64,000 bases of DNA from an uncultured Planctomycetia bacterium (GTDB taxonomy: Bacteria > Planctomycetota > Phycisphaerae > FEN-1346 > JAACEH01): NCBI GenBank assembly GCA_903929765.1, contig CAIYVX010000104.1, positions 2,405 to 66,404 of the forward strand, written 5' to 3'. Made by a program: the position numbers and the translations under genes. Positions 37,087 to 45,719 of this stretch are shown here, piece after piece (positions within the stretch are counted from its first letter, which is position 1; every line of letters starts with the position of its first letter). The notes under the pieces were generated by a model that saw only the letters and a program-made list of their open reading frames with translations, did no database searches and was not told where the DNA came from.

Positions 37087-37117
37087 GCGCTGGGGCCATT
37101 TCGTGTGTGTTGCTATC

Positions 37118-37246
37118 ATCCCCAAGGGGGAGGGGTGAAGAAGAAGCAACAACAAAAGAAACAGCGTCCCCCAGCAGTGCTGGGGGCTTTAAAAGAAGAA
37201 GGAACAACAAAGACCACGGGCAAGATGCCCGTGCCACGGTACAGCC
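37118..37246. repeat. Modular hairpin repeat array D-B-A in the leader of the enolase-superfamily gene
   Basis: Unit D ccccaagggggaggggtgaagaag; unit B cagcgtcccccagcagtgctgggggcttt; unit A cacgggcaagatgcccgtgccacggtacagcc. Units are joined by A-rich aagaagaaacaa linkers. The same B-A pair recurs at 45569-45646. Confidence 0.7.
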
Positions 37247-37310
37247 CTGTTCCCCGGCGGCGCGCGGCCACTTGACGCATGGCTCGGGGGCGGATACATT
37301 TACATTTACC

Positions 37311-38513
37311 ATGAAAATCACGATACGGGATGTGCGGGTCATTCTGACGGCGCCGGCGGGGATCAACCTGGTGGTGGTCAAGGTGGAGACCTCGGAGCCG
37401 GGGCTGTATGGGCTGGGGTGTGCCACGTTTACGCAGCGGTGGACGGCAGTGGCGGCGGCAGTGACGGAACATTTGCGGCCGCTGTTGGTGGGGCGGGAGA
37501 TCGACCGGGTCGAAGAATTGTGGCAACTGATGTATCAGCATTCGTACTGGCGCAACGGGCCGGTGCTGAACAACGCCATCGCGGGGGTGGACATCGCCCT
37601 GTGGGATTTGAAAGGAAAACGGGCGGGGATGCCGCTCTACGATCTGCTGGGCGGCAAGGTCCGCGAAGGAGCGGCGGTGTATCGCCATGCGGACGCGACG
37701 GAGATCAAGGCGGTGGAGGAGCGGATTCACGGATTTCTGGCCGAGGGCGTGCGGCACGTGCGGGTGCAGATCGGCGGGTATGGGGGGAAGAGTTACGAGA
37801 ACGCGCCACCGCCGGAGGGGGCGCTGGCGGGGAGCTATTTCCACCCACGGCAATATCTGCGGGCGACAGTGGCGGCGCTGGAGAAGGTGCGGGGGACGTT
37901 CGGGCCGGGACTGGAACTGATTCACGACGTGCATGAGCGGCTGACGCCGGCGCTGGCGGTGGAGCTGGCGAAAGAGGTGGAGCCGCTACACCTTTATTTC
38001 CTGGAGGATTTGCTGCCGCCGGAGCATCTGGCGTGGTTCGCCAACGTGCGGCAGGTGTGCACGACGCCGCTGGGGATGGGGGAGTTGTTCAGCTCGCCGC
38101 AGGAATGGGTGCCGCTGGTGAGCGGGCGGCTGATCGATTTCATGCGGATGCATATCACGGCGATGGGGGGCCTGACGCCGGCGCGGAAGGCGGCGATCCT
38201 GGGCGAGTGGCACGGGGTGCGGACGGCGTGGCACGGACCGGGGGACGTCTCGCCGGTGGGCCACGCGGTGAACGTACACCTGGACGTGGCGTCGGCGAAT
38301 TTCGGCGTGCAGGAATGGTCGGGGTTCAACGAGGCGCTCGAAAATGTGTTTCCCGGGTGCCCGCAGTTGCGGCAGGGATATGCATACGTCTCGGAGCGGC
38401 CGGGGCACGGGGTGGACGTGGATGAGGCGCTGGCGGGGAAGTTTCCGTGCCAGGCGGTTACGGAGACGTGGACGCAGAGCCGGTTGCCGGACGGGTCGCT
38501 GGGACGGCCGTGA
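37311..38513 (+). CDS. Enolase-superfamily dehydratase (D-mannonate/D-galactonate dehydratase-like, MR/MLE family)
   Basis: MKITIRDVRVILTAPAGINLVVVKVETSEPGLYGLGCATF matches the ManD-type N-terminus, with C-terminal barrel metal-ligand regions. ATG at 37311; upstream of it the track ORF is read-through of the repeat array. Confidence 0.75.
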   Translation: MKITIRDVRVILTAPAGINLVVVKVETSEPGLYGLGCATFTQRWTAVAAAVTEHLRPLLVGREIDRVEELWQLMYQHSYWRNGPVLNNAIAGVDIALWDLKGKRAGMPLYDLLGGKVREGAAVYRHADATEIKAVEERIHGFLAEGVRHVRVQIGGYGGKSYENAPPPEGALAGSYFHPRQYLRATVAALEKVRGTFGPGLELIHDVHERLTPALAVELAKEVEPLHLYFLEDLLPPEHLAWFANVRQVCTTPLGMGELFSSPQEWVPLVSGRLIDFMRMHITAMGGLTPARKAAILGEWHGVRTAWHGPGDVSPVGHAVNVHLDVASANFGVQEWSGFNEALENVFPGCPQLRQGYAYVSERPGHGVDVDEALAGKFPCQAVTETWTQSRLPDGSLGRP

Positions 38514-45463: not shown

Positions 45464-45496
45464 CGGCAAACTCCGTATTCTGGCTGGTGCATAAAC

Positions 45497-45646
45497 CGAA
45501 AAAGAAGAAGAACACACTTTGGCCCCGGCAAGGCTGGGGCTTCAAAGTGTGGCACCCGGAAGAAGAAACAGCGTCCCCCAGCAATGCTGGGGGCTTCAAA
45601 AGAAGAAACAACGCCCACGGGCAAGATGCCCGTGCCACTGTACGGC
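45497..45646. repeat. Modular hairpin repeat array C-B-A upstream of the 91-aa ORF
   Basis: Unit C 45513-45560, unit B 45569-45597 (gcgtcccccagcaatgctgggggcttc) and unit A 45615-45646, with A-rich linkers. Confidence 0.7.
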
Positions 45647-45719
45647 GCGGTTTTCTGGTTGACCGCATTCCCGGCACGGCGTATCCTCGTGGTTTGAGGA
45701 TAGCCGAGGATACCGCGAT

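What the first reader, a model, noticed from the sequence alone, without database searches (positions are those of the whole stretch)
37107..45660. Family of modular GC-rich hairpin repeats (units A-D with A-rich linkers) concentrated in 5' leaders
Four recurring hairpin units occur in combinatorial arrays, joined by aagaagaaacaa-type linkers: A cacgggcaagatgcccgtg..gtacagcc, B gcgtcccccagcaRtgctgggggc, C cacactttgg..caaagtgtggcacccgga, D ccccaagggggaggggtgaa. The arrays are D-B-A at 37118, D at 38531, C at 42525, D-like at 43961, C-B-A at 45497, a degenerate B at 35719, a C variant at 63083 and an A pair at 1583. Most lie between a promoter-proximal region and a start codon on the plus strand. 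They create spurious N-terminal extensions with near-identical peptide sequences in the ORF track (for example SPSSAGGFKRRRNNKDHGQDARATV). They look like a REP/BIME-like system specific to this lineage, possibly RNA stability or translational control elements.
Basis: seen in the sequence. Interest (0 to 1): 0.6.

Follow-up and report, generated by a model that had tools for sequence, protein, structure and literature searches.

The report
Head-to-tail arrays of REP hairpin repeats
The repeated GC-rich hairpins are real, but they are REP-type mobile palindromic repeats (one unit is an already described, RAYT-associated REP found in many phyla), strung in an unusual one-directional array with T-free spacers, and they are not 5' leader regulators.

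Summary
Units A-D, the A-rich linkers and all eight listed sites exist and are far beyond chance, all on the + strand.

- **Unit A is a classical REP.** On the minus strand it reads GTGG + CACGGGCA-TCT-TGCCCGTG. It matches family GTAG-19 of Opitutus terrae (Di Nocera 2013), whose intragenic copies encode the same HGQDARAT peptide. The exact 23-mer occurs in more than 118 contigs from at least six phyla. In three of them it sits within about 300 bp of a REP-associated tyrosine transposase (RAYT)-like gene. It is therefore neither lineage-specific nor new.
- **The arrays are not 5' leaders.** Sigma-70-like promoters lie downstream of the two big arrays. One promoter is conserved in a relative that lacks the array. 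Most arrays sit just after the stop codon of the upstream gene, and one unit is an in-frame insertion inside a gene.
- **Arrays turn over between relatives.**
- **What is unusual.** Different hairpins are strung head-to-tail rather than as inverted pairs. Linkers are T-free (3% T against 18% in the window). The A-rich strand lies on the G-rich strand of the chromosome whatever the gene direction, which suggests replication-coupled single-strand transposition.

Verdict: a new variant of a known kind, of moderate interest.

The parts
1547..1656 (+). Pair of A-type REP hairpins: A'' at 1582-1604 (CAGGGGCAAGATGCCCCTGGCAC) and A at 1606-1628 with the tail tGTACAGCC. They are enclosed by a perfect 21-bp inverted repeat (1547-1567 / 1636-1656). 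The site lies between two minus-strand genes.
   Evidence: fold -72.8 kcal/mol, z -7.6
35707..35829 (+). Intercistronic array between the stop of the HTH_11 gene (35706) and the ATG of the HTH-WYL-WCX gene (35842). Order: linker, degenerate B (35722-35743), degenerate A-type REP (35761-35789, tail CCAC), a weak hairpin, then linker aaaagaaacaaaagaagaa.
37117..37246 (+). Array D'(3' half only, 37117-37139) - linker - B (37166-37187) - linker - A (37215-37237) + GGTACAGCC. It lies after the tRNA-Lys terminator and upstream of the promoter of the enolase-superfamily gene.
37272..37300 (+). Sigma-70-like promoter TTGACG-17-TACATT, downstream of the array and 11 nt before the ATG at 37311.
38514..38619 (+). 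Intercistronic array between the stop at 38513 and the ATG at 38638. Order: linker, full D (38531-38567), T-free linker (38565-38594), unit E (38596-38619; on the minus strand a GTAG-tagged REP).
42523..42570 (+). Unit C: a two-tier hairpin with tail GCACCC, lying between the convergent stop codons at 42461 and 42599.
43961..44010 (+). D'' unit with two hairpins, inserted in frame inside the minus-strand BNR-repeat protein gene (42599-45463). It encodes FHPSPSGEGGPQGPGEGL on the minus strand.
   Evidence: (about 25-aa insertion absent from 9 homologs)
45493..45650 (+). Array linker - C (45513-45560) - linker - B (45573-45594) - linker - A (45616-45638) + TGTACGGCG, in a divergent intergenic region. 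It is absent from the syntenic contig L144.
45659..45687 (+). Sigma-70-like promoter TTGACC-17-TATCCT of the 91-aa gene, downstream of the array. It is conserved in L144, which lacks the array.
63083..63130 (+). C variant with compensatory stem changes and tail GCACCC, located after the stop of the TPR gene (62936).
54050..54110 (+). Tentative degenerate array: linkers caacggcaacggaaacaacaaca and caacaacgg around a decayed hairpin GGGTGA..TTCGCCC-CGAC, similar to units seen in L139 and L141.
   Evidence: weak

Best explanation
These are REP-type (repetitive extragenic palindrome) DNA repeats, arranged in a lineage-specific BIME-like format.

**Shown**
- Each unit is a short GC-rich hairpin whose copies keep their pairing through compensatory changes.
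- A, E and C carry the REP 'foot' tetranucleotide (GTGG, GTAG, GTGC) when read on the minus strand.
- A is identical to REPs of many phyla and lies next to RAYT-like genes in some of them.
- Arrays are gained and lost between close relatives, and one unit has been inserted in frame into a gene.
- All units point the same way. Linkers are T-free. The A-rich strand is the G-rich strand of the chromosome.

**Inferred**
- A RAYT encoded elsewhere in this genome cleaves and rejoins the single-stranded hairpins at the replication fork, as IS200/IS605 transposases do.
- New units would then land in one orientation relative to replication and pile up head-to-tail in tolerated intergenic sites.
- The linkers grow by slippage of AAG, AAC and GAC triplets, and being T-free they keep neighbouring hairpins from mispairing.

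**Likely side effects on expression (by analogy with E. coli REPs, not tested)**
- Arrays transcribed with the upstream gene would give stable 3' or intercistronic stem-loops, without a U tract, that could hinder 3' exonucleases.
- Read on the other strand, each hairpin is followed by a U-rich tract and looks like a terminator.
For: **Anatomy**
- Perfect 8-9 bp stems with triloops; the linkers remain unpaired.
- Among 209 perfect A-like hairpins with a CYAC tail, loops are AGA or GGA in 202, while the stems covary: CACGGGCA, CATGGGCG, CACTGGCG, CACGGACG and others.

**Identity with a published REP**
- O. terrae GTAG-19 intragenic copies encode HGQDARAT, HGRDARAT, WHGRPAR and GTGVPPV.
- The GTAG-to-GTGG variant of the foot is noted, and the O. 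terrae RAYT Oter_2468 is listed (PMC3733652).

**RAYT linkage**
- tblastn with published RAYTs hit 4 of the 118 loci that carry unit A.
- In L097 the gene is flanked by GTAG-CACGGGCATCTTGCCCGTG, CGCGGGCAAGATGCCCGCG-CTAC and GTGG-CACGGGCATCTTGCCCGTG.
- In L093 and L102 an A copy lies within 90 bp of the gene.
- NCBIfam REP_Tyr_transpos scores are 83.5, 73.1 and 63 bits (cut-off 80). Pfam Y1_Tnp is above its cut-off for L093 and L102.

**Same format elsewhere**
- The metagenome contigs carrying unit B include 15 that show head-to-tail arrays of B, D, C-like and GTAG-tailed hairpins with linkers such as (AAC)n, (AAG)n and (GACAAC)n.
- Linker cores total 420 nt with 3.3% T, against 18.3% in the window.

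**Mobility**
- The C-B-A array and the C unit are absent from syntenic L144. A different array sits there between two genes that overlap in the window.
- The relative L145 has no arrays.
- The roughly 25-aa insertion in the BNR protein is absent from 9 homologs.

**Replication link**
- In the window the + strand is G-rich at third codon positions for + and - strand genes alike, from 3 to 50 kb.
- L144 orthologs have coding-strand GC3 skew of -0.59 to -0.70 where the window has +0.04 to +0.22, and the L144 arrays are reversed too.
- 16 of 18 distinct B loci have positive GC skew on the A-rich strand.
- Genes antisense to the arrays have a mean coding-strand GC3 skew of -0.51; co-oriented genes have +0.29.
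Against: - No RAYT gene is present in the window or in the related contigs sampled, so the cognate enzyme of this organism has not been seen.
- B and D lack a GT[AG]G foot. Their link to a RAYT rests only on travelling in the same arrays and, for B, on sharing the 3' flank TGTACGGC with A.
- Head-to-tail dimers are reported as absent or rare for REPs (PMC3733652).
- The strand expected to be single-stranded at the fork (G-rich) carries hairpin-CYAC, not the 5'-GT[AG]G form that E. coli RAYT binds.
- The B-A block is duplicated as a unit (83-92% identity). This also fits block duplication or recombination rather than unit-by-unit transposition.
- GC skew is only a proxy for replication direction, and the contigs are short.
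- Exact A copies in other phyla show no skew bias (58 against 51).
- There is no RNA-level evidence. G.T and A.C mismatches are symmetric (8 against 9).
Confidence: 0.75

Rival explanations
1. The arrays are cis-regulatory RNA elements in 5' leaders that control translation or stability of the downstream gene.
For: Two arrays (35707-35829 and 38514-38619) end 13-20 nt before a start codon. In L133 a B hairpin ends 15 nt before an ATG. T-free linkers contain no start or stop codon on the sense strand.
Against: - Promoter-like sites lie downstream of the arrays at 37117 and 45493, and that promoter is conserved where the array is absent.
- The downstream gene is co-oriented in only about half of the cases, whereas the upstream gene is co-oriented in most.
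- Arrays are not conserved at orthologous sites.
- One unit is intragenic and antisense.
- Orientation tracks strand composition rather than gene direction.
Confidence: 0.07
2. The arrays have been selected as polar transcription terminators or insulators. On the T-rich strand each hairpin is followed by a U-rich tract, so they would stop convergent or antisense transcription while letting sense transcription pass.
For: The consensus scan flags both A units as terminator-like on the minus strand. In L130, L131, L137 and L141 the array fills the gap to a convergent gene's stop codon. Sense-strand hairpins have no U tract.
Against: - The U-rich tract starts 2-4 nt after the stem and is interrupted by G and C.
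- Only about half of the sites have a convergent gene.
- The total count of terminator-like sites in 33-47 kb is not above shuffles (10 against 12.3).
- In L144 an array sits in the 'terminator' orientation between two co-directional genes that overlap in the window.
Confidence: 0.15
3. Hairpin-plus-microsatellite blocks spread by duplication, slippage and recombination without any dedicated transposase. The resemblance of A to REPs would reflect old, now inactive copies.
For: The B-A block recurs as a unit with indels confined to the linker. Linkers are triplet microsatellites. No RAYT was found in the sampled DNA. Published CGTC-type REPs have no transposase (PMC3733652).
Against: - Three A copies in the window are identical over 23 nt, and identical to copies in other phyla, which argues for recent templated copying.
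- New arrays appear at fresh sites, including inside a former gene overlap and inside a coding sequence.
- The strand polarity is what single-strand transposition predicts.
Confidence: 0.2
4. Unit D is a member of the Whalefall-1 structured RNA family (Rfam RF01762) and acts as a non-coding RNA transcribed from the minus strand.
For: Both D (38531-38564) and D'' (43961-44007) align end to end with the model. They share hairpin CUCUCC-UUGG-GGAGAG, an optional second hairpin, and the 3' motif GGGUGAGG.
Against: - Scores of 22.2 and 17.6 bits are well below the gathering score of 37.
- D copies in five related loci gave no match at E of 0.1 or below.
- One D copy is inside a coding sequence, and another is truncated.
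- D always occurs within the arrays, in the same orientation as the REPs.
Confidence: 0.1

Closest known systems
GTAG-tagged REPs, family GTAG-19 of Opitutus terrae (Di Nocera, De Gregorio and Rocco 2013, BMC Genomics 14:522, PMC3733652)
   Same: The hairpin and foot match: GT(A/G)G + CACGGGCN-loop-NGCCCGTG. Intragenic copies there encode HGQDARAT, HGRDARAT, WHGRPAR and GTGVPPV, the same peptides as unit A. A RAYT is listed for that genome. Both are mostly intergenic and downstream of genes, with occasional in-frame intragenic copies.
   Different: In O. terrae the family occurs mostly as tail-to-tail or head-to-head dimers. Here every copy is head-to-tail with other hairpin types, separated by T-free linkers.
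E. coli BIMEs (mosaics of Y, Z1 and Z2 REPs with conserved linker motifs) and REPINs of Pseudomonas
   Same: Several REP subtypes are combined in clusters with recurrent linker sequences. Clusters lie in intergenic or 3' positions, are associated with a single-copy RAYT, and vary between strains.
   Different: The basic unit of a BIME or REPIN is an inverted REP pair. The arrays here have none, and their linkers are A-rich triplet microsatellites rather than fixed motifs.
IS200/IS605 single-strand transposition coupled to the replication fork (Ton-Hoang et al. 2010; summarised in PMC6006769)
   Same: Y1 HUH enzymes recognise subterminal hairpins plus a guide tetranucleotide. Insertions have a fixed orientation relative to replication, which would explain the one-way arrays on the G-rich strand.
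   Different: No transposase gene lies within the repeats, the units are 25-50 nt, and the active strand has not been determined.
Rickettsia palindromic elements (RPE) and intragenic REPs of O. terrae
   Same: Hairpin repeats are inserted in frame into protein-coding genes without destroying them, as with D'' in the BNR protein.
   Different: The sequence family is different. Only one intragenic copy is seen here.
Rfam RF01762 Whalefall-1 RNA motif
   Same: Unit D on the minus strand shares the hairpin sequence, the optional second hairpin and the GGGUGAGG 3' motif.
   Different: The scores are about half the gathering score. Membership is not established.

Membership tests
REP (RAYT-associated, GT[AG]G-tagged) | Short GC-rich palindrome: basal stem of 7-20 paired nt and loop of 2-5 nt (criteria quoted in PMC6006769) | tested here: met
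   A, B, D and E have 8-9 bp perfect stems with loops of 3-4 nt. C has a 9 + 8 bp two-tier stem.
REP (RAYT-associated, GT[AG]G-tagged) | GTAG or GTGG tetranucleotide 0-2 nt 5' of the hairpin foot | tested here: met
   Met for A (GTGG) and E (GTAG), and for A' at 35761. Near miss for C (GTGC). Not met for B ((G/A/C)AAG) or D.
REP (RAYT-associated, GT[AG]G-tagged) | The same REP flanks a RAYT gene (REPtron) | tested here: met
   Met in other genomes. L097 is flanked on both sides; L093 and L102 have an A copy within 90 bp. REP_Tyr_transpos scores are 83.5, 73.1 and 63 bits. For this organism itself it could not be tested: there is no RAYT in the window.
REP (RAYT-associated, GT[AG]G-tagged) | High copy number dispersed over the genome, mostly intergenic | tested here: inconclusive
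   There are 8-9 sites in 64 kb, of which 7 are intergenic. No whole genome was available.
BIME / REPIN | Basic unit is two REPs in inverted orientation able to form a long hairpin | tested here: not met
   All units in the window are on the + strand. The related arrays are head-to-tail.
CGTC-tagged REPs (for unit B) | CGTC tag, A-T pairs at stem positions 1-2, loop of 4-5 nt, CCA tail (PMC3733652) | tested here: not met
   B is preceded by GCGTC in the good copies. However, its stem starts with C-G pairs, its loop is 3 nt and its tail is CTTC/CTTG. The degenerate copy has CTTC in place of CGTC.
Rfam RF01762 Whalefall-1 (for unit D) | Score at or above the family gathering score (37 bits) | tested here: not met
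   22.2 and 17.6 bits.
Intrinsic terminator | GC-rich hairpin directly followed by a U run on the transcribed strand | tested here: not met
   There is none on the + strand. On the minus strand only the two A units pass the scan, and the region total is not above shuffles.
5' leader cis-regulatory RNA | Lies between the transcription start and the start codon, and is conserved with the downstream gene | tested here: not met
   Promoter-like sites are downstream of the arrays. The array is absent upstream of the orthologous gene in L144 and L145.
CRISPR array | One identical repeat at regular spacing with unique spacers | tested here: not met
   Adjacent units are different hairpins, and the spacers are low-complexity A-rich sequence.

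The most novel reading that the evidence does not exclude
In one PVC sublineage, REP-type hairpins may propagate in a distinct mode. They would accumulate strictly head-to-tail as mixed-family arrays with T-free triplet-repeat spacers, with polarity set by the replication fork (A-rich strand on the G-rich strand). That would be direct genomic evidence that RAYT-driven REP spread is coupled to replication, as IS200/IS605 transposition is. Alternatively, the arrays could be a domesticated polar element, for example one-way transcription insulators or mRNA 3' end protectors free of start and stop codons.
Probability: 0.3. Interest if true: 0.6.

Novelty: new variant of a known kind. Interest (0 to 1): 0.4.

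Why it matters
- **Annotation.** These arrays create false N-terminal extensions and false small ORFs, and they break metagenome assemblies.
- **REP biology.** How REPs spread is still inferred mostly from Pseudomonas and E. coli, where inverted pairs hide any strand polarity. A lineage in which REPs are all one-way and track GC skew would make replication coupling of RAYT activity testable from sequence alone.
- **Species specificity.** The exact cross-phylum identity of a 23-nt REP challenges the usual statement that REPs are species-specific. It points to horizontal spread of a RAYT-REP pair.

Tried and rejected
- **Protein search with the translated C-B-A array**, intended to harvest spurious ORFs carrying arrays: no candidate found.
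- **Exact-protein look-up of the enolase-like gene:** not on record. The bioD-like gene worked, but the contigs it returned were 99.98% identical to the window and showed no variation.
- **Rfam at gathering thresholds:** only the two tRNAs. In E-value mode only the weak Whalefall-1 resemblance for D appeared. The mir-1285 hit on C is chance.
- **G.U against A.C mismatch asymmetry**, used to find the RNA strand: symmetric, 8 against 9.
- **Orientation of exact A copies against GC skew in the 110 usable loci from other phyla:** no bias, 58 against 51. The polarity is therefore a property of the array-forming lineage, not of the A hairpin.
- **Generic scan for any hairpin followed by CYAC:** too much background, 6.7 per strand in shuffles.
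- **Scan for T-free A-rich runs of 18 nt or more:** the count exceeded every shuffle (54 against a mean of 31 and a maximum of 51), but the list was dominated by ordinary coding runs. It was not useful for finding arrays.
- **Sigma-54 promoter reading of TGGCAC in units A and C:** rejected by eye, because the GG-to-GC spacing is 2 nt too long.
- **Integron attC, CRISPR and MITE readings:** rejected on anatomy.
- **tblastn for a RAYT in the window and related contigs:** none found.
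Full report
**1. Observation.**

The window is GC-rich (about 64%). Pattern searches with mismatches gave:
- 4 copies of unit A;
- 3 copies of B;
- 2 full copies of D plus one truncated copy;
- 3 copies of C;
- 12 matches to the AAGAAGAAACAAC linker against 0.67 expected.

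Every match is on the + strand. Copies differ by compensatory changes. Each unit folds into the expected hairpin while the linkers stay single-stranded.

I found further units: E (38596-38619), a degenerate A (35761-35789) and a probable decayed array at 54050-54110.

**2. Where the arrays lie.**

A GC3-based gene map, Pfam and called genes on identical metagenome contigs place the arrays as follows.

| Site | Position relative to genes |
|---|---|
| 35707-35829 | Between two + strand genes, starting right after a stop codon |
| 38514-38619 | Between two + strand genes, starting right after a stop codon |
| 37117-37246 | After the tRNA-Lys terminator |
| 42523 | After the stop of a + strand gene, in a convergent gap |
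| 63083 | After the stop of a + strand gene |
| 45493-45650 | Divergent gap |
| 1547-1656 | Between two minus-strand genes |
| 43961-44010 | Inside the minus-strand BNR-repeat gene, in frame |

The consensus scan puts sigma-70-like promoters at 37272-37300 and 45659-45687, downstream of the two large arrays. So these two arrays lie upstream of the predicted promoters and are not in the leaders.

**3. Unit A is a known REP.**

By record title they come from Planctomycetota, Verrucomicrobiota, Kiritimatiellia, Lentisphaerae, Acidobacteriota, Hydrogenedentota, Zixibacteria and Microcoleus. There the 23-mer is usually paired with a sister hairpin in inverted orientation, for example GTGGCATGGGCGTCCCGCCCATG.

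On the minus strand A reads GTGG + CACGGGCA-TCT-TGCCCGTG. This is the REP anatomy: a GT[AG]G foot, a 7-20 bp stem and a 2-5 nt loop (PMC6006769).

Di Nocera et al. 2013 (PMC3733652) describe GTAG-tagged REPs in Opitutus terrae, Rhodopirellula baltica and other Planctomycetes, and cyanobacteria. Their table of intragenic REPs lists, for family GTAG-19 of O. terrae, the peptides HGRDARAT, HGQDARAT, WHGRPAR and GTGVPPV, which are translations of this hairpin. They also note the GTGG variant of the foot and list the O. terrae RAYT.

Using their RAYT sequences in tblastn, I found Y1/RAYT-like genes in 4 of the 118 loci:
- In L097 (Blastocatellia) the gene is bracketed by GTAG/GTGG-CACGGGCATCTTGCCCGTG copies on both sides.
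- In L093 and L102 an A copy lies within 90 bp of the gene.
- NCBIfam REP_Tyr_transpos scores are 83.5 (above the cut-off of 80), 73.1 and 63 bits. Pfam Y1_Tnp passes for two of them.

Among 209 perfect A-like hairpins in all loci, the loop is AGA or GGA in 202, while the stem covaries.

**4. The array format recurs in a lineage.**

A metagenome scan for unit B found 21 contigs, 18 of them distinct.

15 of them show the same design: different hairpins in one orientation, separated by T-free linkers such as (AAC)n, (AAG)n, (GACAAC)n and GGCAAC. Their hairpins include B, D, C-like units ending in GGCACC and several ending in CTAC. Three distinct loci (L123, L126 and L143) carry B without A-rich linkers.

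Linker cores total 420 nt with 3.3% T, against 18.3% in the window. B shares with A the 3' flank TGTACGGC in some contigs.

B, C, D and the linkers were not found in the 118 loci carrying A from other phyla. So A is widely shared, while the array format is restricted to one lineage.

**5. The arrays turn over.**

*L144.* This is the syntenic contig of a relative whose BNR protein is 74% identical.
- The TTGACC-17-TATCCT promoter of the 91-aa gene is conserved, but the C-B-A array is missing.
- The C unit after the bioD-like gene is replaced by a different GTGG REP.
- A new array (a GTGG REP, a GTAG REP and D) sits between the aminotransferase and bioD-like genes, which overlap in the window.

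*L145.* This relative, whose enolase-like gene is 79% identical, has no arrays in any intergenic region.

*Intragenic insertion.* The alignment of the BNR protein with 10 homologs shows that the segment encoded by D'' is an insertion of about 25 aa. Only the window protein and its 74% relative carry it.

This behaviour is that of mobile or expanding DNA, as opposed to a conserved regulatory element.

**6. Polarity follows the chromosome strand rather than the gene.**

- In the window the + strand is G-rich at third codon positions for nearly all genes between 3 and 50 kb, including 16 of the 17 consecutive minus-strand genes.
- In L144 the orthologous genes have the opposite coding-strand GC3 skew (-0.59 to -0.70 against +0.04 to +0.22). 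That region is therefore on the other strand with respect to the asymmetry, and its arrays are reversed as well.
- Of 18 distinct contigs carrying B, 16 have positive GC skew on the strand where the linkers are A-rich.
- Genes antisense to the array there have a mean coding-strand GC3 skew of -0.51, and co-oriented genes +0.29.
- The apparent preference for lying downstream of a co-oriented gene, about 14 of 18 sites, is no larger than expected. Genes in the B loci are about 59% co-oriented with that strand (17 of 29).
- Exact A copies in other phyla show no such bias (58 against 51).

This polarity is what replication-coupled single-strand transposition of the IS200/IS605 type predicts (background in PMC6006769). 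It is an inference from a compositional proxy on short contigs. One detail does not fit simply: the G-rich strand carries hairpin-CYAC rather than 5'-GT[AG]G-hairpin.

**7. Function.**

There is no strand signal for RNA pairing. G.T and A.C mismatches are symmetric, and folding is equally good on both strands.

- On the sense (A-rich) strand the hairpins lack a U tract. On the other strand they are followed by a U-rich tract, and the scan flags the two A units as terminator-like.
- By analogy with E. coli REPs (established knowledge, not tested here), arrays transcribed with the upstream gene could protect its 3' end from exonucleases.
- T-free linkers contain no start or stop codon on that strand and cannot pair with the A-rich context. 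This keeps the hairpins independent, and it also explains the spurious long ORFs.

I regard these as side effects of tolerated selfish or domesticated DNA. A selected role as a polar insulator is not excluded.

**8. Other comparisons.**

- Unit D resembles the Rfam Whalefall-1 motif on the minus strand (22.2 and 17.6 bits against a gathering score of 37). This is not membership.
- B does not meet the published features of CGTC-tagged REPs.
- Head-to-tail REP dimers are reported as absent or rare (PMC3733652). The one-way mixed arrays with T-free linkers are therefore the new element.

**9. Verdict.**

- The repeats are real.
- They are REP/BIME-type elements.
- Unit A is already known, has a RAYT in other genomes, and is not lineage-specific.
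- The 5' leader and translational-control reading is not supported.
- The array architecture and its strand polarity are a new variant of a known kind, of moderate interest.

Noticed in passing
L093:3002-7015 (Planctomycetota bacterium UR.bin180, JAKJER010000032.1): One uninterrupted ORF encodes valyl-tRNA synthetase. It carries, in frame, a whole RAYT-like domain (REP_Tyr_transpos 83.5 bits; Y1_Tnp) bracketed by REP-encoded peptides (LTGVSPV ... HGPEGHAT-HGQDARAT). A complete REP-RAYT-REP unit therefore sits inside valS without a stop codon.
   Followed up: partly
window:1-64000: Third-position GC skew marks the + strand as G-rich for nearly all genes from 3 to 50 kb. These include 16 of the 17 consecutive minus-strand genes (1.7-23.6 kb). 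The skew turns negative or neutral beyond about 52 kb. This could be a replication landmark, an inversion or acquired DNA.
   Followed up: partly
window:1547-1656; L116 and L104: The A''-A pair is enclosed by a perfect 21-bp inverted repeat (gggtgcattaacgttttgggg), giving a three-way structure (-72.8 kcal/mol). The double-A block with the GGTACRGCC tail recurs at about 90% identity in a Phycisphaerae MAG (L104, L116). The L116 copy also shares the aaacgttaatgc flank.
   Followed up: partly
L128, L130, L136, L144, L124, L129 (metagenome contigs): Short tandem motifs rich in stop codons flank the arrays:
- gtaaaaagtaaaaaggtaaaggtaaaaagtaaaag directly after stop codons;
- agtggatagtggttagtggtcagtggacagtaac;
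- ggcttaaggcttaagg-type heptamer repeats next to divergent gene starts.

In L136 the array lies in the rpsO-pnp intergenic region.
   Followed up: no
L127:237-1229: A B unit and a C-like unit with their linkers lie inside a long open frame with coding-like GC3. They would be translated as ...TTATTTASPSSAGGFNGNNNGNNNPQTSLRVAPGE... This may be a second in-frame intragenic array.
   Followed up: no
window:33637-33718 and 35287-35368: An 82-nt direct repeat (84% identity) containing a TTGACC-17-TA(A/G)AGT promoter-like site precedes both the ADP-ribosylglycohydrolase gene and the small HTH_11 gene.
   Followed up: no
window:27800-31830 and 54400-56065: Three paralogous gene copies are present: two in tandem with a period of about 1.6 kb, and a third 24 kb away (62-91% DNA identity). 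They lie in regions of lower GC (0.53-0.56).
   Followed up: no
L028, L035 (Microcoleus): In these cyanobacterial contigs the exact A 23-mer is interleaved with tandem copies of a sister REP, GTGGAACAGGCATCTTGCCTGTTCC. The sister REP keeps the GGCA-TCT-TGCC core but has a different outer stem.
   Followed up: no
L119 compared with window:43255-43313: In one sample the BNR-repeat gene is called as two ORFs (218 and 716 aa) instead of one of 954 aa. Only 2 mismatches separate the 8.4-kb contig from the window, so this is a strain-level stop or frameshift variant.
   Followed up: no
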